A DNA stretch of 64,000 bases from Trypanosoma brucei (GCA_000002445.1 CH464491.1:288001-352000), one strand, 5' to 3'; numbered from the stretch's first letter, positions 15,436 to 41,185 are shown. The notes: generated by a model from the letters alone, not told the origin. Program-made: numbers and translations.

Positions 15436-15462
15436 TTACCGAAGAACAATACTGACAGAATT

Positions 15463-18400
15463 ATGAATTACCAAGCAATTACCGAAATTCCAGATAGCAA
15501 TACGATATTCCATGACACCATTTTTATGAGAAACAACAAACACGTCTCGGAGCAATGGATTCGTATTGGCGAATTGTACCCCAATGGTGCGAAGGAATCA
15601 TTGCTCCCGGAGACGTTTGCACGCGAACAGTTCGGACAAGGAAGTCACTATGAGTGCTTCATGCTTTCTGCCCTCGCCACTTTAGTAAAATTCCCCGACA
15701 TCATTCGGAACTGCTTCGTGTCGAGGAATGTGCGGCGTGACGGGAGGTACACTTTTCAGTTCTTTCGTGACAAGGAATGGGTGAAGGTTGAAATTGATGA
15801 CTCTGTTATGCTTGAGGATGATGAAGTTTTGTTCATCCGATCACCCACTAGTCATTGGTGGCCGCTACTGTTTGAGAAGGCTTATGCGAAATTCTACACC
15901 AGCTACGACAATTTGGAGGGTTGTACCTTACAGGAGGCGTACCATGACTTAACTGGCAACCCCGTGCTCAACATCCCCATGGACGCGAGGCTTGCCAAGG
16001 CTGCAGGTGTGGATGTGACTGGAGGTCAGTATTGGCTTGACCTCGCACAGAAGCTGCAATCCGGCCAGTTTGTTGGTTCGCTGCTGACGAGGGAAACGGA
16101 CCTTGAGTCGATGGGCTTGCAGAGTGAGCAACAATACGGGATACTAGAGATTTTTTCGCTAACTGGGACATCATCTGTAAGCGACATTGTGATTCACCTA
16201 TACAACCCATTCGAGGACGAGGAATTCACGTACAAAGGCCCGCTGAACAGTAAGGACACGGAGTGGACCCCCAAACTCCGTGAAAAGTATAACGTGGATG
16301 ATACGCACTCCATATTTCTTCCGCTACACGTTGCCCTGAAGATCGTAAATTCGGTGCAACTTTGCTACATATCCCCTATTGATGGTGACGCGACGTATTT
16401 TGATGATGAGTGGAAGGGTGAAACTGCGGGAGGGAACCCCACGAGTGTAACATGGCGCAAGAACCCCCTATACTGCGTCAGGAACGCTGGGATCAACCCC
16501 GTGGAACTGGTTGTCGTGATTAAGCAGAAGGATCAACGACGTTACATGTCTTCTGAGGAGCGAACCATGTACCTTCAATGTGGCATTGTTGTTGTTCAGA
16601 GTACCACAGTCACACAAATACCGACATATTTTGTAACAGGGAACAATCACAAAGCAATACACAAGAGTTTGTTCCTAAACTCTCGTGAAGTGTCCAGTTT
16701 CGTTCGGATACCACCTAATTCCTTGTGCTACCTTGTACCTTCTTGCATGAAGAAGGGAGCGGAGAGTGCATTTACGCTCGCACTGTACCGAGTGAAACTT
16801 CAAGACTACAGCAATATTCTGATTAAGAAACTTGAGGTCCCCTCTATGGATTGGGGACATTGTGCCATTGGAAAGGTTACGTTGGAAACAAAAGTGAAGG
16901 AACGGGTTGATTTTTTTGTTGACTGCCCTACTGACATTCACATTTTGATGCATCAAGAAAAACCGTTTGTGAACAAAGTTGGTGGTGATATTACAACTCG
17001 GGATTACGTTGGTGTCTACCTTTATGATGACACGGACCGTAAGATTGGAGGTGTGCACGCTGCGACGAATTTCAGGGAAACAAGTGTCTTGCATCGCCTT
17101 CCTCGTAGTGGTCGTTATGCTATTTCAATTACGTGTCCCCGGGCAAGTGGTGAAGTACCCATTGCTCTCACAATTGTTGGTTCTCCTGATGCTAATGTTC
17201 GTATTGTTGAGGCTCCTGATGATGCCTCCATGTTTGATGATGAGGATGATATTGCAGAGGGTGATGAGGATGCTACTGTTTCTAATCCCATTGACTACAT
17301 TCCTGTTGCTGGTGGAGGGCAGGTGTTCACTGAGGTACCCGATAGTACGGTCCCATTTGAAGATAAACGTTTCATGGTTGATAATAAGATTATGACGAAT
17401 GAACCGTGGATCCACATTGGTGACCTTTATCCTGAGGGAAAGACGCGCTCACTTTTGCCGGAGCGTCTGAGTCGTGAGCAGTTTGAGCAGGGTGAACACT
17501 TCGAGTGCTGTTGTCTGACCGCTTTTGCAGCGCTGGTGGAGCACCACCCCAACGTAATTCGTGACGCGTTTGTGACGAAGGCTGTACGACGTGACGGACG
17601 GTACACGTTCCGGTTCCACCGCTACGGTCAGTGGGTGAAGGTGGAGATTGATGATCGTATTCCCCTTCTTGGTGGGAAAACTTTATTCTGTCGATCATCT
17701 GATGGTTATTGGTGGCCACTACTACTAGAGAAGGCGTATGCTAAGTTCTACACACTATACCAAAATATTGAGGGATGTACGCTGCGGGAACTGTTTTACG
17801 ACCTAACAGGGCTTCCTGTGCTTAGCATTCCGATGGAGTTGAAACTCGCGAAGGCTGTACTGTGTGATGTTGATGATGTGAGTTTTTGGGTTGAGCTCAG
17901 TGAGGGTCTGAAGGATTGTGCGTGTGCTGCCGTTGCACGCCCCGGTTTCGATGACACCCTTGGTTTGTCCAATGGGCAAGAGTACGCTGTCCTTGATGTG
18001 GTATCGTTAACGGATGGTGAGGCCTCTTCCATATCTGATCTTGTTGTAAAACTTCATAATCCGTTTCTGGAGACTGAGTACAAAGGCCCTATGAATGCAA
18101 GCGATGCTGCGTGGTCGTCTGAGCTGCGTACCCGTCTATGTCCGGAGCGACGGGATACTATCTACATTCCCGTGGAAGTTTTCTGCAATGCATTTCTCAC
18201 TGTGGAGAAAGTTATGGTGCGTGGTCTTATTGTTCCCGGGTGGCAATTCAACAGTGAATGGGGTGAGGGCACGAACGGTGGCAATCCAACACTTGTGACG
18301 TGGCGTGAGAACCCCATTTACGTTGTGCAGAACACTGCGGATACCCCGTTACAGATTATTGCAATGATTGGGCAACCTGATCAGCGTCGCGTGCTACACC

Positions 18401-21400
18401 TTCTCCCCGAGCAAGAGGTAAACTATGTTCAATGTGGGTTGGTTCTTTCTCAGTGTACATGTAGCAATCCTGTACCAACATATTTGGTGACGAGTAACAA
18501 CCATCGTGTTGTGCACAAGGGTCTGTTCGTGAACTTTCGTGAGTCGGCGAATATTGTTACCATTCCAGCTAACTCTATGTCGTACCTAATTCCAAGCGCG
18601 ATGTTTCGTGACAAAACGAAGTTTCTTCTCTCATACTGGTTTCAAAAATTGCCTGACATGAAATTTATCAAAATCAGTCGTATCAATGTGAGTGTTGCGC
18701 GGTCACTACCTGCAATTGAGCACCTTGAGCTGCATAACCATGAAAAGAAACGCGTGGATTTTCTGGTTGATGTTCCCACTGATATTCACATTCTGCTTCG
18801 TCAGGAGAAACCTTGTGTGACGGTCCGTACGCACGATGCTATGGCTGATGACTTCCTAGGGATATATCTGTACAACGAGGATGAAAAGCGTATTGATGGT
18901 GTGACCGCTGCGACGAACTACAGGGAAATGGGGCTTGTTCACCGGCTTGCCACTGCGGGGAGATACGCTCTGTCGATCACGTGTCCTCGGGGAACCGGTG
19001 TTGTGCCGTGCCGTGTGGAGATCGTTGGCGTGGAAGATGCGAAGGTGCGTATCACCGACCCACCTGAGGATGCTGGTAATCTGTGTGAGGTTGACCTTCG
19101 CTTTCTGGGTTCTGAAGCTGAGGGTGTGCCTCTTGAAGACCTTCCGCTCGATAGTGACGCCGATTTGCAAGCTATATTGGAAGAACTGAGACGCCTGCAC
19201 GGAGACATTGATGCGAATGCTGAGCCAATTGCAAAACATGAGAGGATGATGAGTGACCGAGTTCATAAGATGGCGAGGCAGCTTCTTGCTAAGGATCGTT
19301 CGAAGTACTTACCAGGATACGATCTTCAAACGGTTAATTCCATACTTGACGCGGAGCCACATTTTGTCGTTTTAGAGCGCGATCGGTACCACCTAAAGGG
19401 TGATCCCAGGAATGCCACGAAGGTTCGGAATGTAGAGAGAAGCCTTCTTACTCTCGCTAATGAAATTCTGGAAAAACACGATGACCCTGACTTATCTTTC
19501 CTTGGAGCCGAGGTGGAAGGAATTCCCACCCTGGATCTCACTCTGATGAGCGACTCTTCATTTTCTGAGATGGCACGTGAGCGCATGCAATTAAAGCGGG
19601 ATCCCATTGCTAATGCGAGTCGTTTGGCTGAGGTTGAAGATAGTATGGTGGCACGTGCGAATGCTATTGCCAAGGAGATGCATTTGAGAGAGCGGCGATA
19701 TCTGAACCCTGAGCCTGAGGGTGTCCCCCTTGAGTTGCTTCCTTTAAACGAGGACGAAGTTGTGAGTGAGAAGGAGGACCGCCTCCGTGCGCTGAATCGT
19801 AAGGAGCGAAAAGACGAGAAACTGTTACGGAGTCTTGAGGACGTGATAGCGGACCGTGTACACGAGATCGCGAGGGAGCTGAAGCTGAGTGAACGTGATC
19901 TGTTCCTTGATCCCACTCCAGGAGGTTTCCCTGTAGCGCAGCTTCCGCTGGACGAAGACGATGTGTTTCATTCACTCGAAGTGGAGCGACTGCAACTGCG
20001 ACTGCGTCAGGATTCCCTTGCGAATAAGACATCAGAGATCAAAGAACTTGAAAGTTGGTTGAACCGTCGAGCGTGTGAACTTGCGCGTGTGAAGGTAGAG
20101 GAGGGTCGAGCGTTTCTAGACCCTGAACCTCTGGGGTTCCCACTTACCGACCTTAACCTTGACGGAGATAGTGAGTTTGTCAAGCTGGAATCGGAACTTC
20201 GTAAGTTGCGTTGGGAGCCGCGTGTGAACAGCACTGCTATGAGGACTGTGGAGGAGGATATTGCTCGCGTTGTATACCGCATAGCACTGAGGAAAACGTG
20301 TCTCGATCGTGACTATCTTGACGCGGAATATGAGGGTCGACCTGTGCAGGGGTTGCCTCTGAATGATAGTAAGGAGGTGCTTGCGATGGAGACGAGGCGC
20401 CGGGTGTTAATTAACGCGAAGGCTGACCGTGACGAAATCGGTGTTGCAGAGAATATGATACGTGATGCTGTGCGTGAGATCGCTCGCGCTCTGAATGTGG
20501 GCGAGCGCTTGGACTACTTGGAGCCATGCCCAAGAGGTGTCCCTGTAGAAGACCTCCCCCTTGACATGGATACGGAATTCCACGAGCTTGAGGTGCATCG
20601 GCAACGTCTCAAGTGTGATGCGAAGAAACAGGACACAGTAATAATGGATGTGGAGCGTGCACTGAATGATCGTGCGGAAGCCCTTGCGAGGGAGCACTTG
20701 TCGAGTGACCGTGGTTACTTGGACCCAGCATCTGTTGGTGTGCCGCTTCGTTTGCTACCACTTGATAGCGATAGTGTGTTCCAGGAGCTTGAAATTAAAC
20801 GTGCGCTACTGAAGAAGAACCCTCAGAGGAACGGACGTGCCATCTCGGCTTTGGAGGGTGGCCTGAACGAGCGTGCACACGTTCTTGCTACGGAAATGAA
20901 GCACGCGGAGCGATCGAAATTTATGGACCCTAACCCTGGTGGTATTGCCATTGAGGATGTTCCTATTGATAACGACGAGGTTTTTTGTGATCTTGAAATT
21001 CGTCGGTTTGGTTTGTGCGAGGACCCGCATGCTAATATAGCAGCGATACGAAATCTTGAAGATGCGATGAATGAGAGGGTGATCGAACTGGCTGATAAGA
21101 TGCGTTGTGAGATCCGCATGTTTCTGGACCCGATGCCATTGGGGGTGTCCTTAGATGAGCTGCCCCTTGACAATAACGAGAGCTTTGTTGCGAAAGAAGC
21201 TGAACTGCACAAGCTTCGGAAGGACCTGCGGGCAAATGGTGCCGATGTTGCTTTGCTGAAGTCTGACTTGAACGAGTTAGCCAAGCAGATGGCGGCGGAG
21301 ATGATTTCTAAAGATCGTGCTTTTCTCTTCCCTGAGCCTGAGGGTCGTCTACTGGAGGAATTGCCTCTAGATAGCGATAAGGAGTTTCGTTCTCTTGAAA

Positions 21401-24400
21401 AGCAACTACGGCTTCTTTGTAAGGAGTCTCCTCCTGAGGCACAGAAAATTGCTGCCATTGAGGAGTTGCTGGATGGTCGTGCGCATCAGCTTGCTAAAAT
21501 GAAGAACTGTGCGGAGCGGAAGGATTACCTGATTTCTCACCCTTGTGGTGTACCTTTGGATGATGTGCCACTGGACAATGACGATGAATTTTCGATGCTT
21601 GAAGTGAAACGAGCTGCGCTAATGCGTGACGTGGTGGGTAACAAGGACTCAATTGCCAGTGTGGAGAAGGCCCTGAATGGGCGAGCGGAAAAGCTTGCGT
21701 TGTTAAAGTTGCGTAGTGAGAGGTCGTTTCTCGATCCTGAGCCTCATGGCATCCCATTGCATTGTGTACCTCTTGATGATGATGATAACTTTCATTTGCT
21801 AGAGGTGGAGCGCTTGACATTGAAGGGTCTGAACATTCGCGAGAATGATCGTAAGTTGGTGGGTGTGGAAAATGCCATGAGGGACTACGTGAATGATTTA
21901 GCCCTTGAGGTGAAGCGAAAAATGAGAGAGGATGTTCTTGACACCTCACCTGATGGTCTTCCGTTGTCGGTGCTTCCTCTTGACAATGACTTACCGTTTA
22001 TTGAGTTGGAGAATGGATACATTAAAGCTGTTTTTGATGCTAAGGATACTTTGAAAATCCAGGACCTTGCAGGGGCGATGCGAAGACGTTCTGAGGACAT
22101 AGCACGTAAGCTGCGAAGTGATGTGAGGTTATCTCTCGAGCAACACCCACTCGGCTTTACTCTAGACGAGCTTCCCGTTGACGATAGTGAATTATTCTTG
22201 GGAAAAGAAAGGGAACTTCTAGAGTTGAAGCAAGATGGAAGATACAATTCCCCAACTGCTATTGAAATCATGGAGGAGCTTAACAGTATCATTTTGGACA
22301 TTGCCAAAGAACAAGCAATTAGAGAGCGCGAATTCCTTGACCAAGAACCGGAAGGTCGACATATCACTGAGTTGAATCTCGATAGCGATACGACATTCCT
22401 CGGGTTAGAAAGGCAGAGGAGATTACTCAAGAAGGATCCGTTTGCTGATCGCAGTAGGATTGTAGACTTGGAACAAATGCTTAACGATCGTTCGCACGAA
22501 CTGGCGAAAAAGCTCAACTCCCTAGATCGACCTAAATTCCTTCCCGTCGCCATACGTGGTGTGTTACTGTCTGAACTTCCCCTTGACAGCGATGCTGAAT
22601 TTACCCGACTTGAAGTTGAGCGCAGCTCTCTCTATCGCGATCCCGTACGAAACGCATCAACAATAAACCATGTGGAGGAAGCCTTGAATATCCGAGTAGC
22701 GGCTATGGCCGACGAAGTTGTCCGCCAGGATCGAATGTTCTTGGGCGAGGATGTTGAAGGTGTTTGTGTGCGTCACTTACCTCTTGATGATGACGCAGAG
22801 TTTCGTGCCCTAGAAACCAAGAGGGCGACATATAAAAGTTGTGGTTCTCGCATGGGCACGAAGGCTATCAAAGACCTTGAGGATCAGCTGGGAGATCGTG
22901 CAGCTGAGCTCGCCCGCACTGCAAAGAAGGAACTTCGCAACCTTCTCGGTACAGAACCCCTTGGTGTCCCACTCAGTGATCTACCAATTGATGTGGATGG
23001 TCGGTTTCGTGCGCTTGAAGACAATTATCGTGATCTTTCTCGTAACTCTGCGAACGGAGGGAAGCTTTGTGAGATTATTCTACAGTTGAACGAACGTGCG
23101 CTTGAACTGGCGGCGGAGTTGCACACCAAAGAGCGAGTTGTGCTAAGTCAATGTCCTGGAGGTATTCCACTGTCTGCACTTGCGCTGAATGAAGATGAAA
23201 TGTTCAAAGCTCTCGAAACGGAAGCTCGGAAGCTTAGGCATAGTACTGCTGGTCGAGGTCGCAACGCCGCTCGTATTTCTGAACTTGAGAGCGCGATGAA
23301 TGAGCGGGCGATGGAACTGGCGAACCAGTTGCGTAGGACATACTGCGACGCCGCTCCTGAGGGGATTCCACTGGAGCTACTTGGCTTGGGAGGGGTGGAG
23401 GAGTTTACGAAACTTGAAGATGCCTTGCGTGATGCGACGAAGGACCCCGTGAAGAATCGTGAGATAATAAGTGACATTGAGTTTGAACTGAACAGCCGTG
23501 CACACGTTGCTGCGATGGGACTTCTGGAAGGCGACCGCGATTACCTTGAATGTGAAACCATGGAAGTACCACTTTCTGATTTGCCTCTGAATACGGACAG
23601 TGTTTTTCGTGCGCTTGAGGTGGAGCGAGCGGTGCTGAAGTTGAGAGAACCTCACCGTGGCGCTCGTAGAGTCCGGGAGTTGGAGTTGAAACTCGTCGAG
23701 CGTGCTCACAGGCTTGCGGAAGAACTGAAAGAGGAGGATCTGAGTGGTCTTGATGGTGAGCCTGAGGGTGTATCATTACGTGCACTGAAACCACACAACG
23801 ACTCTTTGTTCAGTGAGTTTGTTGGAGCGATGCGAAAACTGAAAAGGGGACCGAAGAGAAACACTGTTGCTATTGAGGAATTGCGGGAGCGTATGAACGA
23901 GCGTGCGCACGAGTTGGCACAGGAAAAATTGAAGGATGACCGGGAGTTTCTGGATCAGTGTCCGGAGGGTGTTCCGCTTAGTGACCTTCCCTTGGGTACA
24001 GATCCTCTTTTCCACAAGCTGGAGACGGAACGCGCGAGGTTGAAGGAGCGTGACGCTGCTCGGAACATAACCCACATCCACGAACTTGAGAGTCGTCTGA
24101 AGGAGCGCGCAGTTGAGCTGGCAAATGAACAGAAAGGTCGTGATTTGAGCGAACTGGAGCAGTCGCCGTGCGGCGTGCCTATATATATCCTGCAGTTACA
24201 CGATGATCCCGTGTTGCAGAAGATGCTGAACAAAATGCGTGGATTGAGGAACCGCGGCGTCACTGGTCCCGAGTTTGTCGCACTCATTGATGAAATAAAC
24301 AACTGTGCGAGGGACGCTGCCGAGGAGCTACTGCTGCGGGACCGTGAGTACCTTGAACCTGAACCTCTCGGTGTACCACTGAGCCTTCTATCACTCACAA

Positions 24401-27400
24401 CGGACACTGTGTTTCATGGTCTGGAAGTGCAGCGTGCGGTGCTCAAGGCGCAAAATGCACGTCGGAACGCAGCGAAGATTTCTGATTTTGAGATGCGTTT
24501 AAATGAACGTGCTGTGCAACTGGCAGAAGTGCAACGGCAGCGGGAGCTGGAGGGGCTTGATCCCGAACCTGAGGGTATTCCTATATCTGTGCTTAATCCT
24601 CACGGAGATGTGGAATTTATTAAGCTTGTAACTGAGTTGCGTCAATTGTGTAGTGAGGGCAATAATGAGGGCATGTGTGATGTGCTGAAGACCACGATGA
24701 ACGACGTTGTGCATGCTCTGGCGAAGCGATTGAAGGAGGGAGATCGTGGCTACCTCGACCCTGAGCCCGAGGGTGTTCCGCTGTGTGTGCTGCCGTTGGA
24801 CACTGATGTGTTGTTTTTTAGGCTAGAGTGTGAACGTGTGACTCTGAAGGCACGTAATGCGCACTTAAACGCGAGGAGAATATGTGAGTTGGAGGACGCA
24901 CTCAATAACCGTGCAGTGGAACTTGCTCGCGAGCAACTGCGGCAGGACGTTAATGGTGTGGACGAGGCGCCGTGCGGTATTCCTCTGCAGCTGCTACGAC
25001 TTCACGAGGACAGTACCTTTCTTGTGATGGTGGATGATATTCGCACCCTAAGGAAGAATCCGGATGCTAACAGCGAGGCGATTGACGCCGTTGTCATGTC
25101 CATGAATGATCGCGCCTATGACGTTGCGATAGCTCAATTTGACCGTGGTTTCCTTGATCCTGAACCCGAGGGCGTTCCATTATGTATTTTGCCACTGGAT
25201 GACGATGAGTTGTTCCATGGTATGGAGGTGGAGCGGATTAAACTGAAGCTTACTGATGCGCGTCGCAATGCGCAGACGATTGGCACACTGGAGGAAGAAA
25301 TGAATGGCCGCGCACACGAACTCGCATTGCAGCAGTTGCGTGAGGAGCTTTCCGGTATTGATGCGGCACCTGAAGGCATTCCCTTGTCATTGTTGAGGGT
25401 GATGGAAGACCCTGCCTTTGCACTGATGGTGCTGGAGTTGCGTGACCTCAAGAAGGGCACCCAGGGTAATGCGGAACGGATTCGGGAGGTGGAGGACGCT
25501 ATGAACAACCGCGCTTACGAACTCGCGGATGGGCTGCTGGAGGGTGATCGCAGCTATCTAGACCCTATTCCCCTCGGCGTACCCGTCTCGGAACTTCCCT
25601 TGTGTTCCGACGAACCGTTTGCCACTATGGAGGTTGAACGAGCGAGGTTGAAGGCCGAAGACGCACGACGGAATGCAGCAGGGATTGGAGAACTTGAGTT
25701 GAAACTTAACAACCGCGCGAAGGAACTTGCGTCTGAACAACTATTACGTGATTTGGAAGGATTCCACGACGAGTATGAAGGGATTGACCTTGCGCACCTG
25801 AGGCCACACGACGACAAAGAATTTGTCTCCCTTGTACCGGAATTACGGAGGTTGAAAAGAGATGGTGACAAGGAAGCTGTTGAGCAACATATGCGCAGCA
25901 TGGATAGGCGCTTACGTGAGCTTGCGAAAGAGCTTGTTGGTGGTGATCTTTGGTTTCTTGACAAGGAACCGGAGGGTGTTCCCTTGACGTACTTACCTTT
26001 GGATGGGGACGAGATTCTCGACAAATTGCGCCATGAACGAGCTCAACTAAAGATACAAGATCCGCGGGGGAATGCTGACAGAATTGCGGAACTTGAGAGG
26101 AAAATGAATGAACGTATTCATGATCTAGCGAGGTGTATAGGAGATGAGGATTTTGATGGTGTTGAGGGAGAGCCTTGTGGCATTCCGTTGAGTTTACTCT
26201 CTCCTAGAGATGATGAGGTTGTTGCAAAACTTATCAATGACATTCGTAAAGTGAAATATTCTACAGGGGAGAAAAGCTCGAATGGTGCGCTGAATAACTT
26301 GCAGGTTGAACTTAGCAAACGTGTACACCAACTAGCAGAGGATGTTTTAATAAGAGACAGGGTGAAGTACCTAAACCAGTGCCCAGAAAGTGTTGATATA
26401 TCTTTTCTTCCCCTTAGTACTGACGAACAGTTTCGTGCCTTGGAGTTGGAGCGGGTCATTATTAATATCCAATCGAACGGTGACGACAAACGTTTGGACG
26501 GCTTAGAAGATATGCTTAACAAGAGAGCGCATGAGCTTGCAAAGGAACAGCTGCAGGAGGACCTAAGAGGACTGGAACAGGCTCCCCATGGTGTTCCACT
26601 TGACGTTCTTAAACCCCACAGCGACTTACGATTCATTAAAGAGGCGGAACAGCTACGGAACTTAAAAAGAGACCCGCTTCGTAATAAGAGGGAGATAGAT
26701 GACCTTGTGGAGCAAATGAATAATACTGTTGGTGAACTTGCCCTGAACTTACTACGTAGCGATCGTGACTACTTGCATTTGGCTCCTGAGGGAGTACCGA
26801 TTGAAGAGCTTCCACTGGAGGTCGATGCAAAGTTTTGTGCTTTGGAGGCGGAGCGTGCAATGTTAAAAGGCGAGAACAACCCGAAGAATGCGAGTATGAT
26901 ATTATCTTTGGAAGAGAAATTAAATGAGCGTGCTCGCCAGCTGGCTCAAGAGCAACTACTGGAAGACCTGAAGGAATTGAGTTCTTTTCAGCATTGTGTT
27001 CCTCTCTCACTTTTATCGCCTCATACTGACGTTCAGTTTGCTGCTGATGTTGCTGAATTTCGACGACTGAAAAAAGAAGGGGAGCAAAACACCCCTGCCA
27101 TTCAGGGCGTTGTCGGGAGACTTAACGCACGTGCGAATGAGCTCGCGGAAGAGTATTTGCGTACCGATCGCGCATCGTATCTTAACCCTGAACAACTTGG
27201 TGTGCCACTTGACTTGCTATCTTTGGACACAGACTCTGAGTTCGTGTCACTGGAAGCTGAGAGGCTAAAATTGTTGTCCTATCCGGCGGTTAACAATGAG
27301 CAAATAACTCGTTTGGAAGCTGAGTTGAATGCATGTGCCAAAAAATTGCTTGTTAAAAGATTGTATAAAGAAAGGAATTATCTGGATAGGGATCCACTTG

Positions 27401-30400
27401 GCGTGTCTCTGAATGCTTTACCTCTTGATACGGATTCGCAGTTTCATTTCATGGAGCTGAAGCGGTTGGCTTTGAAGGCAGGAGATCCCTGTTGTAATGA
27501 AGTCGCAATCAATACTTTGGAGGAGAGATTGAGTGACCGTGCATACGAGTTAGCAAGGGGGCAAATTGCGGAAGACTTGAGTGATCTGATAAGTGCTCCC
27601 AGGGGTATCCCGGTGAGTCTCCTTCATCCCCATAATGATCCAGAGTTTCATGAGATGGTTGTTAGTGTTCGACTGTTAAAGAGGGATTCTCAACCTGATC
27701 TATCGAAACTTATGAGGCTGGTCGATGACCTGAACAGGAGGGTAAAGGAGCTTGCAGACTGTGCTGTAGGTACATGCCGGAGAAAACTCAACCCACTCCC
27801 GGATGGTATACCCCTGCAGTCGCTTCCCCTAGATGAAGATCCATTATTCAGTCAGATGGAGCGTGATCTCGTTTCATTGTTCCTTGAAGATGAGAAAAAG
27901 AATGCCACTCGGATAACTAAGCTGGAGGACCGCCTCAATGAACGTGCGGCGAACATTGCTGTCTCTGTAAAGGCGAAGGATTTGGAGCAGTTGGAACAGA
28001 CGCCTTGCGGCATACCTATTGAGCTTTTAAGGCCCCATGAGGATTCAACTTTCGCCTCACTGGCAAATCAATATCGCATTTCCAAGCACCTGGGGGGGAG
28101 TGATTCACACGGCGTGAATGTTGGAACCCTGAACAAAAGGGCTACGGAAATAGCCATAGAGCTTCTGAGGGGCGATCAGAGTTACATTGATCGTCAACCT
28201 TGTGGGGTTCCTTTTTCCGCTTTGGAATTGGAGAAGGATCCCCAATTCCGCGACTTGCAAGTTCAGCGGATGAGGATGGTACTTTCAAATCCGAAACGCA
28301 ATCTCAACAGAATAACTGAACTTGAGGTACAACTTAACTCGTACGTTCAGAGGTGTGCGCAGGCGTTCTTGGCTGCTGATCGTGGATTTGTTGACAAAGA
28401 ACCTGGGGGTGTACCGCTCGCGGAGCTAGACCTTGACAATGATCCTCTCTTTCATCGAATGGAGGTAGAACGAGCAAAGTTGAAAATAAGAGAGCCAGTC
28501 ATCAACGCCTATCGGATACGTAATCTGGAGGAAAAATTGAACGATCGCGCTCATGAGTTGGCAGAGGAATTGTTGGCCACTGACCTTGAGGGAATTGCGC
28601 CCGAACCCGAGGGAGTTTTGTTGGCTTCCTTGCACCCGCACGACGATGCCGAATGTGCCTCCCTCATCGCCGCAAAACGGCGGTTGCTAAAGGAACCGTC
28701 CCAAAACATGGAAAAGATTAGGGACGTTCAGGAAAAGTTGAACAACCGCGTGTTTCAGTTGGCAAGGGAGGTAATTTCCAAGCTCCGTAAACAGTTGGTT
28801 CAAGAGCCGGAGGGGATTCCGCTGGAATTCTTACCGCTTGACGCAGATAATACATTTCGCAGCATGGAGAGAGATCTCCTTGCCTTGCAAGCTACTCCTC
28901 GACGTAATGATATTAAAGTGGAGACCTTGAGGGGGAGTCTGAACGAACGCGCGTGCGAGTTAGCAAGGGGTCAAATACAATGTGGCCGTGGATTCCTTAA
29001 CCCACAACCGGAGGGTGTTGATCTCGAGCACCTTCCCCTTGATGAAAATGTGGTGTTTCGAAGCAAGGAGGTAGAAAGGACCAAACTCAAAAGGTGCCCT
29101 CACGAAAATGCAGCCGCTATTACGCAGCTAGAAAGTGATCTGAATGCCCTCGTACACAGCATCGCAAAAGACATAAAATTATCAGACCGTGCATTTCTGA
29201 ACCTAACGTCACACGGTATCCCGAGGGAATTGCTACCACTTGATGAGGATCGGAGCTTCACGACGATGGAACGTCGGCGAAGGAGACTGAAACGTGACGG
29301 CAACCGTAGGGCCACTGCAATGATGAATCTGGAGGAAATGATGCAGGATCGTGTAGATGACTTGGCTTTTCGCATTTTGCGAGGGGATCGGGGTAACTAT
29401 GTCACTCTTCCTGATGGGATTGACGCAGCAGACATTCCTATAGATACTGATGAACGTTTCGGAACCTTGGAGTTGAGGCGCGCAGTCGTAATGTTACAGG
29501 GTTCGGATGATTGCAAGGAACAAGTGGGGAAGTTGGAGCACCAGATGAGCGAGCGACTACAAGAATTAGTCAGGAAGCGGGTAAAAGAAGACAGAGATTT
29601 CCTTGATCCGGAACCTGAGGGCATTCCATTGAAGGATATTCCACTTGACTCCGATGCCGAGTTTAGGCATCTTGAGGCGCGAAGAAGAAAAATCCGTCGC
29701 GAATCGCGTCGTCGAGTAACTAATGTCGCCGATCTGGAGGAGGCTATGAATGATCGCGCACATGTACTTGCAAGGTGTATCGTCGCTGAAGATGTCGGGC
29801 ACCTTCGGCCTGATTACCGAAGGATTCCAACCAACGAGCTGCATCTTCATAACGATGACACGTTTAGGTCACTCGCTAGCAAACGTCGGGAGCTGCTACA
29901 GGTGGGCGCAGTCACCGTTGATATTGCTGCCATCGAAGACGATATGGACATCCGGGCGCTGCAGGTTGCTGATGATGTAGTAGCGGAGGAACGGGCCTTT
30001 TTAGACCCACAACCCGGGGGCATGTTTATTGTTGACTTGCAGCTCGATGAAGATGAAACATTCTTTGCACTTGAGCGTGAGCGGCGGAGGATGAGAAAGG
30101 ATTTCCGTTTCGCTAAGCGGAACAAGGAGGCCATTAACGACCTTGAAGTCAGTCTTAATGAACGTGCTTGTGAATTGGCAAGGGAGGCGTTTTCAAAACA
30201 ACGCGATTTCATGGATCAGGAGCCCGAAGGTATTCCTCTAAAGGAGCTGCCTCTTGATAATGACTTGATTTTTAAAGATGCTGAAATTTCTCGATACGTG
30301 TTGTTGAAGGATCCAAAACATGCAGCGAATGAATTAATTGCCTTCGAAAACGTCATGAATTGTCGGGCGCATGAGCTAGCGAAGGAGATCATTGCAAAAG

Positions 30401-32859
30401 ATCGTGACTTCCTTGACCTTGAACCTGATGGCGTCCCTCGAGAAGAGTTGCCGCTTGATACAGATGAGAGGTTTCAGGTATTGGCACAAGAACATTTTCG
30501 ATTAAAAAGGCTGAATGGAAATCTGAAGTCCACTGAGGTAAGAGTTTTAGAGGAAAAAATGAATGAACGTCTGCACGAACTTGCCAAAGAATTCCTTCAA
30601 GAAAATCGTTCATTTCTTGATTCAGAACCAGAAGGCGTTCCGATAGCCGATGTTCCCTTTAGATGTGACCCTACTTTCGTCGAAATTGAACGAGAGTTAC
30701 TAAAGTTGAGCAGGAATCCGGTGGTGCCCGATAGCGCGAAGCAAATCGTTCGTGATCTTCTAAACAAGAGGTTGCATGAGATCGCTGCGGCTTTTTTGAA
30801 GAAAGAACGAATATTCCTCGACCCTGAACCCTTTGGTCTTCCATTGGCGTGTTTACCACTTAATTATGACCACATCTTGAATTTACTTGAACGAAAGCGG
30901 CGTGCTCTCAAAAAGAACGGGAGGGGAGAGATCAAAACAATTCGCTCCCTGGAGGAAGAGATCCAAGATCGTGTTAACGTTATTGCAGTGGAGTACTTGG
31001 AGATGGAACGGAGTTTTCTTGACCCCCGACCCCGGGGAGTGCCTTTGACCTTACTTCCTCTCAATGGTGATTGGCGTTTTCGTAGCATGGAGGTTGAGCT
31101 ACGGGCACTACGGAAGAACCAAACGAAAAACCGAAAGGATATTGAAAAAATAGAGGGAGACCTTAATCTTAGGGCGACGGAACTGGCAGGAGCCTTTCTA
31201 CAAAAACATCGTGTTTTTATCGATCCTGAGCCCCTTGGTGTGCCCATTGAAGAATTACCTCTTGACTCCGATTCCATCTTTCACAATATGGAGAGTATGT
31301 ATCTTCAAATGGGACGAGATATCCCGAGAGCAGCAGAACTTCGAAGAATGGAAGAGGAAATGAATGACCGAGTACGTGAACTCGCTACCGAGCATCTTCA
31401 GGGAGAACGCGCTTTTTTGAACCAAAAACCTCAAGGTATACCACTGTGTGACCTATCGCTTAACAACGATAGGCCGTTTCGTGACATGGAAAAGCGACTC
31501 CGTGCCCTTCGCAAGCACCCTCGTAGCAACACCGAAGGTATCAAAACTATTCAAGACGAAATGAACCAACGAGTAAATGCATTGGCTCGTCGCAAAATAT
31601 CTGATGATCGAAGCTATCTTCCGCTTGAGCTTCATGGCGTTCCCGTATATGACATTCCACTTGATGATGATAGGGAGTTCAGGGACCTTGAGATCAAACG
31701 GCACAGAGACAAAAACCTATCACCCGAGGACGCTGTGTTAGTTCAACGGGTTGAAGAAGAACTGGTCAGCCGCGCTCTGGATATCGCAAAAGATTTTGTG
31801 TCGAGAGAGCGCTCTTTTCTAGACTCTAACCCACAAGGAGTTCCAATAATCCGTCTTCCGTTGAGTACCGATGAGCAGTTCCGAGAATTAGAGACGAGGC
31901 GCCGCCACCTCAAAAAAGATCCGAGGAATGCGGGCATAGTCGCACTGCTAGAGCAGCAGCTCAGAGCGCGAGCACACGAGCTAGCAGAGGGACTATTAGG
32001 TTGGCAGGATGTTCAATTTCATGAAGCTAACCATTCCGTAGCGGAGATGTGGCCGCGAATCGGTGAGTTGTACCCTGAAGGAATCCGAAACTCTGTGTTT
32101 CCGGAAATAACACAGCCGGGCGATACTTCATCTGCGCCTGGTGAACTTGGCTATTTAGCACCTTTCATTGCCGCTCTCAGTCAACACCCGCCTCTAATTC
32201 ATCGGCTTCTGGAAACGAAAACACATCCCGTTAATGGTCCATATTCTTTCATCTTTTTTGATCCGAACAGCAACCCTGTTCGTGTTGACATTGATGACCG
32301 TGTGCCAGTGGATGCGAAGTGTGAGCCCAAGTTTACACGCGTGCCACACCGGTCTTGGTACCCGCTGCTGCTGGAGAAGGCATATGCGAAGTTTGTTGGT
32401 GGGTACGCAAAGCTCGACCAGTGCACACCACACGAAACCCTCCGTGATCTAACGGGCCGTCCAGTGCTACATATCCCTTTTGATGATCGACTCGCAGATG
32501 CAGCGAATACGGGTGACTTCCGATCTGTGAAATTCTGGAAGGGGATTAAAAGGAACCTCGCGGCTGGAGATGTGATCACATGCATAAGCAACCACGAAAG
32601 TGTGGACGGCCTTCACTCTCAATGCAGTTACGCTCTCCTTAGTGTAATCGAAACTGTGCATGAATCGAATGATGTCTCTGACATCGTGATCAAATTACAC
32701 AACTGCTACTACGATAGCCCGACATACGACGGCCCACTGTGTAACGATGATGATAACTGGACCGATGGTTTGAAGAGACTTTGCCATTATAATCCTGAGG
32801 AGGATGCACTTTACATACCTGTTCCTGTGTTTCTGCGTAACTTCTCGAGCATGCAGCGC
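15463..32859 (+). CDS. Giant calpain-like protein with four parts: two tandem N-terminal calpain-like modules (15463-17215 and 17340-19060), about 60 degenerate 68-70-aa GM6/FRA-type repeats (19080-31990), and a C-terminal calpain-like module (31990-32859). The 3' end is truncated by an N-gap.
   Basis: 5834-codon ORF beginning at the first ATG after a poly-T/AG signal (15416-15435). Module 1 has ...GSHYECFMLSALATL...WWPLLFEKAYAKFY... and module 2 has ...GEHFECCCLTAFAAL...WWPLLLEKAYAKFY...; each is followed by a domain-III-like GGNPT..TWR.NP.Y motif. The repeat core is FLDPEPEGVPL..LPLD.D..F..LE.ER..LK....N...I..LE..MN.RA.ELA. The ORF's apparent stop at 32965-32967 is a gap-edge artefact. Confidence 0.8.
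19080..31990 (+). repeat. Degenerate coding tandem repeats of about 204-210 bp (68-70 aa). They are the same family as the 1-10172 array but strongly diverged.
   Basis: The motif FLDPEPEG[VI]PL recurs roughly every 68-70 residues across about 4300 aa of the translated ORF. Confidence 0.8.
26634..27278 (+). repeat. 645-bp segment duplicated at 32960-33604 (immediately after the N-gap)
   Basis: gaggcggaacagctacggaacttaaaaagagacccgcttcgt ... gaggctaaaattgttg is identical in both places, apart from one 1-nt indel at the gap edge, one n, and one gag/gaa difference. Confidence 0.9.
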
Positions 32860-32959
32860 NNNNNNNNNNNNNNNNNNNNNNNNNNNNNNNNNNNNNNNNN
32901 NNNNNNNNNNNNNNNNNNNNNNNNNNNNNNNNNNNNNNNNNNNNNNNNNNNNNNNNNNN
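32860..32959. other. Assembly gap (100 N)
   Basis: Run of n. The flanking sequence has an ambiguous base (n at 33011) and a 1-nt indel relative to its duplicate. Confidence 0.95.
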
Positions 32960-35900
32960 ATTCATAAAGAGGCGGAACAGCTACGGAACTTAAAAAGAGA
33001 CCCGCTTCGTNATAAGAGGGAGATAGATGACCTTGTGGAGCAAATGAATAATACTGTTGGTGAACTTGCCCTGAACTTACTACGTAGCGATCGTGACTAC
33101 TTGCATTTGGCTCCTGAGGGAGTACCGATTGAAGAGCTTCCACTGGAGGTCGATGCAAAGTTTTGTGCTTTGGAGGCGGAGCGTGCAATGTTAAAAGGCG
33201 AGAACAACCCGAAGAATGCGAGTATGATATTATCTTTGGAAGAGAAATTAAATGAGCGTGCTCGCCAGCTGGCTCAAGAGCAACTACTGGAAGACCTGAA
33301 GGAATTGAGTTCTTTTCAGCATTGTGTTCCTCTCTCACTTTTATCGCCTCATACTGACGTTCAGTTTGCTGCTGATGTTGCTGAATTTCGACGACTGAAA
33401 AAAGAAGGGGAGCAAAACACCCCTGCCATTCAGGGCGTTGTCGGGAGACTTAACGCACGTGCGAATGAGCTCGCGGAAGAGTATTTGCGTACCGATCGCG
33501 CATCGTATCTTAACCCTGAACAACTTGGTGTGCCACTTGACTTGCTATCTTTGGACACAGACTCTGAGTTCGTGTCACTGGAAGCTGAAAGGCTAAAATT
33601 GTTGTTGGACAGAGATGGTTATGTGTCTTATATTAATGTGTTGGAAACTCGTTTGAATGATAGGGTGCGGGAGCTGTGTCGTCTGAGTCTACTTGATTTT
33701 CCCGAATTTTTGTTGGATGTGTCGAACTTTGGGGTTCCTTTGGAGGAACTGTGCCTCTTCGAGGATGATGGTTATCGGCGTCACATTTGTTCGTGGTACA
33801 AGCTTCGTAGGACCCCGGAGGTTGATAACGAACGCATTTCTTGTGAAGCTTGTATTGTTGAAATAGTTCGGGAAAAAGCAAAATTGTATACTGAGGAGAT
33901 ACTTCGATCTCTTCCTCTCGTATATCGTGGTATACCGCTACGTGATGCCGATTTGTTTCGGAACGATGGTTTTATTAATAGTGTTAAACGTTTTCGGCGC
34001 GCCGTTCGTGAAAAGCGGGATGAGAGTGAGATTGTGGAGGCCGAAGATAATATGAAAAATATAGCATTTGATATAATTGATGGTTTGATTTTAAAGGAAC
34101 GTGGCAGTCTTGACCAAGAGCCGGAAGGAATATCTATCAATAACGTTCCACTTGATTACGACAACGCCTATCTTGAGATGGAAGCAGAACTCCATAGTCT
34201 TTTAAAGCAACAATCCATGTGTGAAGCGGCTTCCATATTGCAACTCCGAAAAGCAATGAACGACAGGGTACACCATCTTGCCCTTATTGAGCTGGCGAAG
34301 ATGAGGACTTTCTTGGACCCTGAGATATTCGGCATACCCATTAAAGATCTTCGTCTTGAAGGTGACATGGACTTCCGGAACGCGGAAATTAGTCGATATA
34401 AAAAATTAAAAAATGAGGCAAATGCTGATGTGAAAGACCTTGAAGTTTTAATGACAGCACGTGCACTTGAGGTAGCGAAGGCTTTTGTTGCGCGAGAGAG
34501 AGCTTTTTTAGAGCCAGAACCACATGGGTTGTTGTTAGAGGAATTGCTTCTAGATACGCATAAGGTGTTTACGGATTTGGAGAGGGAGCGCCGAGTGCTC
34601 CTCAAGGAGCCAGGGTTGTGTGAAAACACTGTGAAAATCAAATCACTGCAGGACAAAATGAGAGCTGTGGTCAACGAGTTGGCGGTAGCGTACGTTGCAG
34701 AGTCCCGTAAGTTCCTAGATCCTGCGCCAGAGGGTGTTCCGCTTGAGGAATTGTCTTTAGACTCGAACGAGCTATTTATTGAATTGGAGAAAAGGCGGTT
34801 TGGGCTCCTGCGGGAGGGGAAGGGAGATGAGGGTAATCTTAAAGATGTCGAGAAAAGTATGCAGGACTGCATTCGTGAGTTGGCTAAGGGGCTTTTGAAG
34901 GAAAATCGTGCCTATCTCAACCAAAAGCCATTAGGTATACCACTTGATTATCTACCCCTCAACAACGACAAGAAGCTCCGTGAATTAGAGAGGAAACGAC
35001 GGGAACTTCTGAATACCTACGATAATGATTCTCCCCAAGTGAAGTCTATAGAGGGGGTGATTATTAAGCGAATTGACAAAATTGCTGCTCGTTACCTTGA
35101 AGGAGAGCGCTCCTTTCTGGATCCTTGTCCACAAACTGTTCCCCTGCGTTACTTGCCTCTTAACGCAGACACCAATTTTTGTTCCCTGGAACAGAGGCGG
35201 AGGGAGCTGCGCAGGGGAGGAGACACTGCCGAAGATGATGCAATGATAAAGGAACTGGAAATTCGTATAAATGATCGCGCTCATGAACTGGCTAAAGAGG
35301 TACTACACAATGGTCGGCTTTTTCTTCATCCTGAAATTCTCGGTGTCGCAGTTTCTGATATTCCTTTGAGTGATCACGAACCGTTTGTTCAACTTGAAGA
35401 AGCTCTGAGAAGAATCAAGGTCGACAACCCAATAAACAGCTTTATGGAGGTTGACCTAAGGGAGAAATTAAAGCAGTGTGCGAGACAGGTAACTGAAAAG
35501 ATGCTCGATGAAGAACGGAGTTTCTTGGATCAAAATCCTTTGGGTATTCCACTGAACAGTTTGATGCTGAATTATGACCCGAAAATGCAAGAACTCGAGC
35601 GAGTGAGAAGGAAGAAACTGCGGGATAAAGTGGACGCTAACGAGGAGGAGAGGGAGATGGTGAGGCGCGTCAACGAGATGGCGGAGGAGGAATTACGCCG
35701 TCAACGTATGTACCTTCCGGCCACACCATTGGGAATCCCATTCCAGTACTTGGGTCTTGACAGCGATGGGAAATTTGGCCAAATGGAAAATTTTCTACGC
35801 ACATTGAAAAGGGATCCTCTGTCGAAAGAAAAAGCGATTCGTGATCAGGAGAACGCAAATAGGCAGTACGTATTTAGAACGGCAGCGGAATACAAACGAA

Positions 35901-41166: not shown

Positions 41167-41185
41167 GATATAAATAAATAAATAA

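What the first reader, a model, noticed from the sequence alone, without database searches (positions are those of the whole stretch)
19080..31990. Adjacent paralogs carry the same repeat family in opposite evolutionary states (homogenised vs highly diverged)
Gene 2 contains about 60 units of 68-70 aa sharing only the skeleton [FY]LDPEPEG[VI]PL..LPLD.D..F..LE.ER..LK....N...I..LE..MN.RA.ELA.E.L, with less than 40% identity between most neighbouring units. Gene 1, 2.5 kb upstream, keeps at least 50 copies of the same family essentially identical. Either homogenisation is suppressed in gene 2, e.g. by selection for unit diversity in a structural ruler or spacer protein of the flagellum attachment zone. 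Or the gene-1 array is a very recent expansion. Neither state is explained by a simple feature call, and the contrast within one locus is striking.
Basis: partly seen in the sequence, partly recalled or inferred. Interest (0 to 1): 0.7.

Follow-up and report, generated by a model that had tools for sequence, protein, structure and literature searches.

The report
Frozen versus homogenised repeats, ClpGM6 locus
Two neighbouring giant trypanosome cytoskeleton genes are built from the same 68-amino-acid module: one (the known ClpGM6) keeps its copies almost identical by ongoing recombination, while its neighbour holds 64 copies that have each kept their own identity and position since before trypanosome species diverged. 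The contrast is real but already described in outline for Trypanosoma cruzi.

Summary
The window is the Trypanosoma brucei-group chromosome 11 ClpGM6 locus. Gene 1 (3-12914) is the 3' part of ClpGM6: 51 near-identical 204-bp units, 4 degenerate units and a calpain-like C-terminus. Gene 2 (15463-32859, cut by a 100-N gap) has two N-terminal calpain-like modules and 64 units of 65-70 aa of the same Pfam family (DUF7623). Mean unit identity is 31%.

Orthologues settle the interpretation. Gene-2 units are ancient and position-specific: they are collinear one-to-one with T. vivax (63 units, 53% against 33% off-position), T. congolense and Phytomonas (64 units, z=19), and they are under purifying selection. 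Gene-1-type arrays are homogenised separately in T. brucei, T. congolense, T. vivax, T. cruzi and Leishmania, which is concerted evolution, not a one-off recent expansion.

Most likely mechanism: gene-2 units share at most 16 identical bases, too few for unit-to-unit recombination, so the array stays frozen and selected. Gene-1 units share 35-204 bases, so exchange continues.

Galetovic et al. (2011) described the same conserved/degenerate pairing in T. cruzi and proposed the same explanation. The gap hides about 13 kb: a third paralogue that copies gene 2's first 11.8 kb.

The parts
3..10226 (+). Gene 1 (ClpGM6, 3' part; gene model Tb927.11.1100 by inference): homogenised array of 51 units of 204 bp / 68 aa. 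It runs off the window start and has a 100-N gap at 8584-8683.
   Evidence: TRF period 204, 93-96% matches. Translation. The antibody peptides KASDSRSFLDPMPE and ERRKLIAEDREGN of Hayes 2014 occur in the unit. Mosaic of 29 recurrent variant sites.
10227..11033 (+). Gene 1: four degenerate terminal units that escape homogenisation. They are positionally conserved in T. congolense ClpGM6.
   Evidence: Identity to the core unit 0.15-0.43. 60% identity to the same stretch of T. congolense P0019.
11034..12914 (+). Gene 1 C-terminal calpain-like region and stop codon.
   Evidence: Pfam Peptidase_C2, E=9.8e-21. 11019-11876 is 95% identical to 32002-32859 of gene 2.
15463..19101 (+). Gene 2 (probably Tb927.11.1110 / Tb11.47.0035) N-terminal region: two calpain-like modules.
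   Evidence: Pfam Peptidase_C2 in two stretches plus Calpain_III. 55-76% identical to N-termini of orthologues in T. congolense, T. melophagium, T. cruzi and Leishmania.
19102..32019 (+). Gene 2 array: 64 diverged DUF7623 units of 65-70 aa, position-specific and collinear with orthologues.
23542..28791 (+). Central block of gene 2 (units 23-48) in which canonical 'LPLDxD' units (A) alternate with 'L.PH.D' units (B). B units are 24, 26, 28, 30, 32, 34, 36, 38, 40, 43, 45 and 48; unit 54 is also B-like.
   Evidence: Lag-2 identity 0.37 against 0.30 at lag 1. Motif classification. In T. vivax, units at B positions best-hit B units.
32020..32859 (+). Start of gene 2's C-terminal calpain-like domain, cut by the gap.
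   Evidence: Pfam Peptidase_C2, E=2.1e-21. It continues in T. equiperdum L007 to about 21150.
32860..32959 (.). 100-N scaffold gap hiding about 13.1 kb: the rest of gene 2, the spacer, and the 5' 11.2 kb of gene 3, which is a near-identical copy of gene 2's 5' part.
   Evidence: T. equiperdum CM010682.1: window 32859 corresponds to record 295613 and window 32960 to record 308717. A second copy of gene 2's N-terminus lies at L007 22136-24161 (99.7%).
32960..33605 (+). Gene 3: copy of gene-2 units 38b-41a, 99.5% identical to 26631-27277. This is the end of the 11.8-kb shared tract.
33606..36115 (+). Gene 3: 12 units unique to it, weakly collinear with gene-2 units 53-64.
   Evidence: Best offset 53, mean identity 0.336 against 0.286. 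Collinear at 36-41% with the last 12 units of arrays in other species.
36116..37993 (+). Gene 3 C-terminal calpain-like region. 36321-36958 is 100% identical to 32222-32859 of gene 2.

Best explanation
The window holds three tandem paralogues of the trypanosomatid calpain-like GM6/H49 (DUF7623) repeat family. All share one plan: two N-terminal calpain-like modules, a rod of about 68-aa helical-hairpin modules, and a C-terminal calpain-like domain.

Gene 2 keeps the ancestral state. It has a fixed series of 64 modules, each with its own sequence and position, inherited unit-for-unit at least since the common ancestor of Trypanosoma and Phytomonas and kept under purifying selection.

Gene 1 (ClpGM6) keeps diverged modules only at the edges of its array. 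Its centre is a single module type that is continually re-homogenised, presumably by unequal exchange or gene conversion. Every species therefore has its own consensus and copy number (concerted evolution).

The two states sustain themselves. Recombination between units needs long, nearly identical DNA. Gene-1 units provide it; gene-2 units do not. Gene 2 can therefore no longer be homogenised, and losing or gaining a unit would have to happen by illegitimate events that selection then removes.

What is shown: the anatomy, positional orthology, selection, concerted evolution, and the difference in DNA identity.

What is inferred: that lack of homology is what blocks homogenisation, and that the product is an elongated FAZ scaffold in which module number and identity matter.
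For: Same family: PF24610 hits in both genes.

Gene 2 is frozen:
- 64 units with mean identity 0.31.
- T. vivax P0152 has 63 units equal to T. brucei units 2-64. Positional identity is 0.53 against 0.33 off-position, and 56 of 63 positional partners beat every T. brucei paralogous unit.
- All 19 units of T. congolense P0003 map to units 46-64 in order.
- Phytomonas EM1 P0029 has 64 units. Main-diagonal identity is 0.421 against 0.308, neighbouring diagonals are 0.29-0.33, and the permutation z is 19.

Selection on gene 2:
- pN/pS is 0.26 against T. equiperdum (47 synonymous, 41 non-synonymous changes).
- Against T. congolense pN is 0.27 with pS 0.80, saturated.
- The 17.4-kb ORF is intact.

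DNA substrate for exchange:
- Gene-2 units have 43% nt identity and a longest shared exact run of 16 nt at most.
- Gene-1 units share exact runs of 35-204 nt.
- T. brucei homologous recombination depends strictly on substrate length and is impeded by mismatches (PMC1904282).
- Recombination is active at this locus wherever homology exists. Gene 2 and gene 3 share 11.8 kb at 99.9%, plus a tract of about 1.1 kb in the C-terminal domain.

Gene 1 evolves in concert:
- Consensus units between species are 0.63, 0.51 and 0.50 identical. This is about the same as orthologous gene-2 units, and PMC3808341 reports 51-55%.
- Variants form a mosaic, and edge units are diverged.
- Homogenised-type genes of T. 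cruzi and L. donovani begin with units collinear with gene-2 units 3-13 and 3-4 respectively.

Module structure: AlphaFold2 of units 31-34 gives pLDDT 92; each unit is a loop plus helices of about 17 and 26 residues.

Localisation: Tb927.11.1110 is 'FAZ + anterior tip' and Tb927.11.1090 is 'Whole FAZ' in TrypTag source data.
Against: - The causal step (divergence blocks exchange) is inferred from sequence identity and from general properties of T. brucei recombination. It was not measured for this locus.
- Unit number is not fixed everywhere. T. rangeli P0038 (28 units, missing blocks), L. mexicana P0035 (37 units) and L. orientalis P0028 (90 units, with internal duplications) depart from 64. 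Some of these may be other paralogues or faulty gene models.
- Whether the homogenised arrays of different species descend from one ancestral array or from repeated amplifications of a similar unit cannot be separated with these data.
- The equation gene 2 = Tb927.11.1110 rests on gene order and old identifiers, not on a sequence match. N-terminal tagging would also label gene 3.
- The order of gene-1 units comes from a gapped assembly of a near-perfect repeat and may be unreliable.
Confidence: 0.8

Rival explanations
1. The gene-1 array is a recent, lineage-specific expansion of one unit in T. brucei, and gene 2 simply shows the older, unexpanded state. gave for T. cruzi H49.
For: Core gene-1 units differ by only 0-10 nt of 204. 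Reported copy numbers differ widely between species: about 60, 9 and 11 (PMC3808341). Galetovic et al. proposed that expansion happened only in T. cruzi.
Against: The orthologous gene has a homogenised array in T. congolense, T. vivax, T. cruzi, L. donovani and L. tarentolae. Consensus units are 0.50-0.63 identical between Trypanosoma species and share the F.AM[ED].ER..L signature. That fits one old array evolving in concert better than five independent births. Independent re-expansions of the same unit cannot be strictly excluded.
Confidence: 0.12
2. Gene 2's diversity is neutral decay of a dispensable or pseudogenised array, not a maintained state.
For: The repeats evolve faster than the calpain domains: 56% against 81% identity to T. 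congolense, and pN/pS of 0.26 against 0.05. Only G8 and A59 are nearly invariant across units.
Against: The ORF is uninterrupted over 5,799 codons. Synonymous sites are saturated while pN is 0.27. Position-specific identity persists as far as Phytomonas (z=19). The AF2 model is confident. Two peptides were reported for Tb11.47.0035, and there is a TrypTag FAZ signal.
Confidence: 0.03
3. Neighbouring units are kept below about 40% identity by direct selection against misfolding or co-aggregation of adjacent identical domains, as proposed for titin-type multidomain proteins (recalled from Wright et al. 2005, Nature; not checked here). Diversity itself would then be the selected trait.
For: 95% of neighbouring pairs are below 40% identity. 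The A/B alternation places unlike units next to each other.
Against: ClpGM6 works with more than 50 identical neighbouring units of the same fold (PMC4121973), so identical neighbours are tolerated in this family. Non-neighbouring gene-2 units are equally diverged: lags 1-8 all give 0.31-0.34.
Confidence: 0.05
4. The contrast is an assembly artefact: a chimeric gene 2 or a mis-collapsed array.
For: There are two 100-N gaps. The sequence after the second gap repeats an internal part of gene 2. In the T. b. gambiense locus (L001), the GM6 repeats are followed, across a run of N, directly by the gene-3 fragment; no sequence matching gene-2 units 1-37 or 42-64 lies between.
Against: A gapless T. 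equiperdum chromosome reproduces window 14300-32859 in one 18.6-kb alignment at 99.3%. T. vivax, T. congolense and Phytomonas proteins show the same unit order. The assembly problem is real, but it concerns gene 3, not the array in the finding.
Confidence: 0.02

Closest known systems
T. brucei ClpGM6 (Tb927.11.1090 + Tb927.11.1100; GM6 antigen; Hayes et al. 2014, PMC4121973)
   Same: Gene 1 is this gene: the published antibody peptides occur in its unit. Gene 2 shares its plan of calpain-like ends and a 68-aa DUF7623 rod, its chromosomal position and, per TrypTag, the FAZ.
   Different: Gene 2's 64 units are all different (31% identity) and fixed in order. ClpGM6's core units are 90-100% identical and vary in number. 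No functional study of gene 2 turned up in the searched library.
T. cruzi H49/calpain cluster on TcChr39, including XP_809993 with only degenerate repeats (Galetovic et al. 2011, PMC3214072)
   Same: It shows the same pairing in one chromosomal cluster: genes with conserved 68-aa repeats flanked by degenerate ones, and a paralogue with degenerate repeats only. The authors proposed that the degenerate gene is a remnant that rarely took part in homogenising recombination.
   Different: They counted repeats by an 80% similarity threshold (24 degenerate units) and did not test unit-by-unit orthology between species. They also concluded that expansion occurred only in T. cruzi; the homogenised arrays in African trypanosomes and Leishmania argue against that.
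Modular ruler or spacer proteins such as nebulin, titin and the spectrin family (comparison from general knowledge, not tested here)
   Same: These are giant rods of many homologous modules in which a module resembles its positional counterpart in another species more than its neighbours. They have higher-order super-repeats in the central part and unique modules at the ends.
Concerted evolution of coding tandem repeats by unequal crossing-over or gene conversion (classical models; other homogenised trypanosomatid repeat antigens)
   Same: Gene 1 shows the hallmarks: within-species homogeneity, between-species divergence, variable copy number, mosaic variants and diverged edge units.
   Different: Here a frozen sister array of the same unit lies 2.5 kb away, which acts as an internal control.

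Membership tests
Trypanosomatid calpain-like GM6/H49 repeat proteins (Pfam DUF7623, PF24610) | Tandem units of about 68 aa matching PF24610 | tested here: met
   Gene 2 sample: 15 stretches, E=6e-244. Gene 1 tail: 4 stretches, E=2.8e-68. Gene 3: 13 stretches, E=8.8e-188.
Trypanosomatid calpain-like GM6/H49 repeat proteins (Pfam DUF7623, PF24610) | Two calpain-like (CysPc) modules at the N-terminus, and CysPc plus domain III at the C-terminus | tested here: met
   Gene 2 N-terminus has Peptidase_C2 in two stretches plus Calpain_III. Its C-terminal start has Peptidase_C2. The rest of the C-terminus lies in the gap but is present in T. equiperdum L007.
Trypanosomatid calpain-like GM6/H49 repeat proteins (Pfam DUF7623, PF24610) | Restricted to kinetoplastids | tested here: met
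   A profile search of 1.84 billion representatives found only 123 proteins at E of 0.001 or less. Every hit for which a source name was retrieved is a trypanosomatid.
Trypanosomatid calpain-like GM6/H49 repeat proteins (Pfam DUF7623, PF24610) | Cytoskeletal or FAZ localisation | not testable with these tools
   Literature only. ClpGM6 is at the FAZ (PMC4121973). Tb927.11.1110 is 'FAZ + anterior tip'. The T. cruzi degenerate-repeat paralogue is on the cytoskeleton and flagellum including the FAZ. The identity of gene 2 with Tb927.11.1110 is inferred from gene order.
Array under concerted evolution (gene 1) | Units more alike within a species than between species at the orthologous gene | tested here: met
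   Within a species, units are about 96-100% identical. Between species, consensus units are 0.63, 0.51 and 0.50 identical.
Array under concerted evolution (gene 1) | Mosaic distribution of shared variants, with diverged units at the array edges | tested here: met
   29 recurrent variant sites occur in shuffled combinations. Units 49 and 51-55 are progressively diverged. Caveat: the assembly is gapped.
Array under concerted evolution (gene 2) | Units more alike within a species than between species | tested here: not met
   The opposite holds: 56 of 63 units are closer to their T. vivax positional partner than to any T. brucei unit.
Fixed-length modular ruler or scaffold (nebulin/titin type), by analogy | Module number and order conserved between distant species | tested here: inconclusive
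   64 units in T. brucei, 63 visible (units 2-64) in T. vivax, and 64 in Phytomonas, all collinear. T. rangeli and several Leishmania proteins deviate, and for these orthology and gene-model quality are unclear.
Fixed-length modular ruler or scaffold (nebulin/titin type), by analogy | The protein is extended along a structure, and its length sets a dimension | not testable with these tools
   This needs microscopy of both protein ends and length-variant alleles.

The most novel reading that the evidence does not exclude
Gene 2's product is a true fixed-length scaffold of the flagellum attachment zone / anterior cell tip. Its 64 non-interchangeable modules, with a central two-module A/B period, would each occupy a defined place or bind a defined partner, so that module number and order encode a cellular dimension or an ordered docking map. 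ClpGM6, by contrast, would be a variable-length version whose copy number can be tuned. The locus would then be a natural paired experiment on how selection for positional identity, as against bulk length, decides whether a coding repeat freezes or homogenises.
Probability: 0.2. Interest if true: 0.6.

Novelty: already known. Interest (0 to 1): 0.35.

Why it matters
The genes, the repeat family and the conserved/degenerate contrast are already in the literature and databases, so this is not a discovery of a new kind of element. The analysis adds four things.

1. The diverged array is not merely degenerate. It is a unit-for-unit conserved series of 64 modules, shared by T. brucei, T. vivax and Phytomonas and under purifying selection.
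2. The homogenised state is also old and is maintained separately in each lineage.
3. It corrects the published view that the expansion is specific to T. cruzi.
4. It warns that the window's gene models here are wrong. A 100-N gap hides about 13 kb, including most of a third paralogue whose first 11.8 kb is 99.9% identical to gene 2. N-terminal tagging, RNAi or CRISPR reagents aimed at Tb927.11.1110 will therefore also hit that paralogue.

For FAZ biology, it marks an unstudied giant protein as a candidate fixed-length scaffold.

Tried and rejected
- Whole-gene and 4,799-aa protein queries failed: too long, then timed out. I switched to queries of about 1,000 aa.
- I first suspected gene 2 was a chimera. 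T. equiperdum locus L002 joins window 27277 directly to 32960, and no T. brucei-group protein matched units 42-56 at high identity. I rejected this after fetching L007, which shows that L002 belongs to a second, downstream copy (gene 3) and that gene 2 is intact.
- Literature searches for Tb927.11.1110 / Tb11.47.0035 / Tb927.11.1120, DUF7623 and the Leishmania chromosome 27 identifiers returned no functional study of gene 2. They gave only a proteomics table entry, TrypTag source data and a repeat-architecture survey. One hit for 'Tb927.11.1110' was actually Tb927.11.11100.
- The mean pS of 0.11 among gene-1 units is inflated by a few edge units. The site table describes the array better.
- Minus-strand ORFs of 211 and 222 aa inside gene 2 were not pursued. 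They lie antisense within a conserved coding array, and nothing further supports them.

Full report
WHAT THE WINDOW IS

The window is the ClpGM6 locus of a Trypanosoma brucei-group genome.
- The two peptides used by Hayes et al. (2014) to raise the anti-ClpGM6 antibody, KASDSRSFLDPMPE and ERRKLIAEDREGN, occur in the gene-1 repeat unit.
- The downstream ORF at 40168-41166 (Radial_spoke_3) is found exactly on chromosome-sized records of T. b. gambiense DAL972 and T. equiperdum.
- According to the TrypTag paper, Tb927.11.1090 is the N-terminal part of ClpGM6 and Tb927.11.1100 the C-terminal part. Gene 1 of the finding (3-12914) is that C-terminal part.
- No ORF of 200 aa or more lies between 12914 and 15463. 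Gene 2 is therefore very probably the next model, Tb927.11.1110 (old identifier Tb11.47.0035, 'calpain-like cysteine peptidase, putative'). This equation is inferred from gene order, not from a sequence match.

CHECKING THE OBSERVATION

Gene 1 in the window holds 51 near-identical units of 204 bp / 68 aa. TRF gives period 204, 42.1 + 7.3 copies at 93-96% matches, interrupted by a 100-N gap at 8584-8683. Four degenerate units (10227-11033) and a calpain-like C-terminus follow.

Gene 2 is an uninterrupted ORF from 15463 until a second 100-N gap at 32860.
- An HMM seeded on gene-1 units and iterated finds 64 units at aa 1214-5519 (nt 19102-32019), each 65-70 aa.
- Both genes match Pfam PF24610 (DUF7623). 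A 1000-aa sample of gene 2 gives 15 stretches at E=6e-244.
- Mean pairwise unit identity in gene 2 is 0.31 (maximum 0.57), and 95% of neighbouring pairs are below 40%.
- At the DNA level, gene-2 units are 43% identical and synonymous sites are saturated (pS 0.78). Core gene-1 units differ from their consensus by 0-10 nt.

Gene 2's array also has internal structure. Units 23-40 strictly alternate between the canonical 'LPLDxD' type (A) and an 'L.PH.D' type (B). Looser alternation continues to unit 48, and unit 54 is also B-like.

IS GENE 2 ONE REAL GENE?

This needed care, for three reasons.
- The sequence after the gap (32960-33605) is 99.5% identical to an internal part of gene 2 (26631-27277).
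- The last 638 bp before the gap are 100% identical to 36321-36958.
- One T. equiperdum locus (L002) joins window 27277 directly to 32960.

A second locus from the same gapless chromosome (L007; GCA_003543875.1, CM010682.1) resolves this.
- L007 1603-20153 aligns with window 14300-32859 in one piece at 99.3%. The N-terminus, all 64 units and the start of the C-terminal domain are therefore contiguous.
- About 1 kb after gene 2's stop, a second copy of gene 2's N-terminus begins: L007 22136-24161 matches window 15508-17535 at 99.7%.

There is thus a third paralogue, gene 3. Its first 11.8 kb (N-terminus plus units 1-41a) is 99.9% identical to gene 2 within T. equiperdum. It then continues with 12 units of its own and a C-terminal domain (window 33606-37993).

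The window's 100-N gap hides about 13.1 kb, calculated from record coordinates 295613 and 308717. This is a collapsed duplicate. The array in the finding is not affected.

Protein searches returned partial or complete orthologues. I cut them into units with the same HMM and compared each unit with all T. brucei units.
- T. congolense P0003: all 19 units map to units 46-64 in order. Identity is 0.46-0.72, against 0.37-0.57 for the second-best unit.
- T. congolense P0002 covers units 38-57.
- T. conorhini fragments cover units 9-30, 30-36 and 45-53.
- T. theileri covers units 56-64, and T. melophagium units 3-9.
- T. vivax P0152, from a long-read assembly, has 63 units corresponding to units 2-64. 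Positional identity is 0.53 against 0.33 off-position. The positional partner is the best hit for 53 of 63 units and beats every T. brucei paralogous unit for 56 of 63.
- Phytomonas EM1 P0029 also has 64 units. A unit-level global alignment runs down the main diagonal. Diagonal identity is 0.421 against 0.308, neighbouring diagonals are 0.29-0.33, and a permutation test gives z=19.

Selection on gene 2:
- Against T. congolense, units 46-64 are 56% identical, with pN 0.27 and pS 0.80 (saturated). The adjacent calpain domain is 81% identical.
- Against T. equiperdum, the repeats show 47 synonymous and 41 non-synonymous changes (pN/pS 0.26). The N-terminal domain gives 0.05.

The array is therefore old, ordered and constrained, though less tightly than the calpain-like domains.

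Not every lineage keeps 64 units. T. rangeli P0038 lacks blocks, L. mexicana P0035 has 37 units, and L. orientalis P0028 has 90 with internal duplications. Some of these may be other paralogues or imperfect gene models.

GENE 1 ACROSS SPECIES

The T. congolense (P0019) and T. vivax (P0020) orthologues carry arrays that are homogeneous within each species but have different consensus units.
- Consensus identity to T. brucei is 0.63 (T. congolense), 0.51 (T. vivax) and 0.50 (T. cruzi H49). This is about the same divergence as between orthologous gene-2 units.
- Pillay et al. report 51-55% identity and copy numbers of about 60, 9 and 11.
- Homogenised arrays also occur in L. donovani CAL27.1, L. 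tarentolae and Porcisia.
- The four terminal degenerate units of T. brucei ClpGM6 are conserved in place in T. congolense.
- Homogenised-type genes of T. cruzi (P0156) and L. donovani (P0144) begin with units collinear with gene-2 units 3-13 and 3-4 respectively.

The simplest reading is an ancient duplication of a gene with a diverged array. One copy stayed frozen. In the other, a central unit type has been amplified and continually re-homogenised, leaving diverged units at the edges. The mosaic of 29 recurrent variant sites among gene-1 units is what unequal exchange would produce, with the caveat that the assembly is gapped.

MECHANISM

Shown:
- Gene-2 units share exact nucleotide runs of 16 nt at most (median 8).
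- Gene-1 units share runs of 35-204 nt.
- Recombination is active at this locus wherever long homology exists: the 11.8-kb gene 2/gene 3 tract at 99.9%, a C-terminal tract of about 1.1 kb, and a 95% tract between genes 1 and 2.
- T. brucei homologous recombination depends strictly on substrate length and is impeded by mismatches (Barnes and McCulloch 2007).

Inferred: gene 2 cannot be homogenised because its units no longer offer recombination substrates, and purifying selection on each unit keeps them apart. Gene 1 stays in the exchange regime because identity begets exchange and exchange restores identity. Each state therefore sustains itself.

STRUCTURE

AlphaFold2 on units 31-34, with 25 in-register four-unit segments as the alignment, gives a confident model: pLDDT 92 and pTM 0.74. 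Each unit is an extended loop (the FLDPEPEGVPL..LPLD.D part) followed by helices of about 17 and 26 residues.

LOCALISATION AND FUNCTION

[quoted passage not shown] TrypTag source data list Tb927.11.1110 as 'FAZ + anterior tip' and Tb927.11.1090 as 'Whole FAZ'. In T. cruzi, antibodies to the degenerate-repeat paralogue label the cytoskeleton and flagellum, including the FAZ.

I therefore take gene 2 to encode a giant calpain-like scaffold associated with the FAZ, about 6,100 aa judged from the gene's span in T. equiperdum. A ruler or ordered docking function is plausible but untested.

COMPARISON WITH WHAT IS KNOWN, AND NOVELTY

- The repeat is the GM6/H49 68-aa unit, now Pfam DUF7623.
- Galetovic et al. 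(2011) described, in the T. cruzi TcChr39 cluster, genes with conserved repeats flanked by degenerate ones, and a paralogue (XP_809993) with degenerate repeats only. They proposed that it is a remnant that rarely took part in homogenising recombination.
- I did not find the following in the searched library: the unit-for-unit orthology of the 64-unit array across Trypanosoma and Phytomonas, the A/B block, the evidence that homogenisation is ancient and parallel rather than specific to T. cruzi, and the hidden third paralogue.

VERDICT

Its first interpretation (ancient, position-specific units) is supported. Its second (recent expansion) is better restated as long-running concerted evolution. 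Interest is moderate to low (0.35) because the phenomenon is published in outline. The ruler/ordered-scaffold reading remains open (probability about 0.2).

Noticed in passing
window 32860-32959 (gap), 32960-37993: The 100-N gap hides about 13 kb. A third paralogue (gene 3; the T. b. gambiense fragment P0013 is annotated 'T. brucei spp-specific protein, fragment') has a 5' 11.8 kb that is 99.9% identical to gene 2 in T. equiperdum, then 12 units of its own. Reagents against gene 2's N-terminus or units 1-41 will also hit it.
   Followed up: yes
window 11019-11876 vs 32002-32859; 32222-32859 vs 36321-36958: The C-terminal calpain-like domains of the three paralogues share tracts at 95% (genes 1 and 2) and 100% (genes 2 and 3), with sharp ends. 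These look like gene-conversion tracts between paralogues, in contrast with the lack of exchange between units.
   Followed up: partly
window 33606-36115: Gene 3's 12 unique units align best, though weakly, with gene-2 units 53-64 (mean identity 0.336 against 0.286 background). They align at 36-41% with the last 12 units of arrays in other species. Gene 3 may be an older paralogue whose 5' part was overwritten by gene 2.
   Followed up: partly
proteins P0034, P0139 (L. braziliensis / L. panamensis), P0039 (Porcisia), P0042/P0046, P0044 (Leishmania 'Tb-292 membrane associated protein-like'): Other family members are homogenised at a higher order. Blocks of 5, 6, 7 or 8 different units are themselves repeated many times, a third array state besides 'frozen' and 'single-unit homogenised'.
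   Followed up: no
L001 (T. b. gambiense DAL972, FN554974.1) 1-6510: In this reference-guided assembly the GM6 repeats are followed, across a run of N, directly by the gene-3 fragment. No sequence matching gene-2 units 1-37 or 42-64 lies between them in this locus, probably an assembly omission.
   Followed up: partly
window 33011: There is a single ambiguous base (N) inside the gene-3 copy of unit 38. It gives an X in the translation and hints at a consensus built from non-identical copies.
   Followed up: no
window 7000-10226: Variant gene-1 units cluster towards the 3' end of the array. Two 67-aa units (34 and 36) carry 'RLEERMNELSRELARMKLKDRS', and units 49 and 51 differ by 33 and 45 nt. 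This is the edge effect expected for arrays homogenised by unequal exchange.
   Followed up: partly
window 20823-21458 and 21885-22553, minus strand: Two antisense ORFs of 211 and 222 aa lie inside gene 2's array. They are probably by-products of the biased composition of the sense strand (GC skew 0.15-0.20).
   Followed up: no
window 38001-40000 and 41168-42462: Intergenic stretches are AT-rich (GC 0.355) with (ATAT)n, (TA)n and T-rich microsatellites flanking the radial-spoke-protein-3 gene at 40168-41166. This is typical of trypanosome intergenic regions.
   Followed up: no
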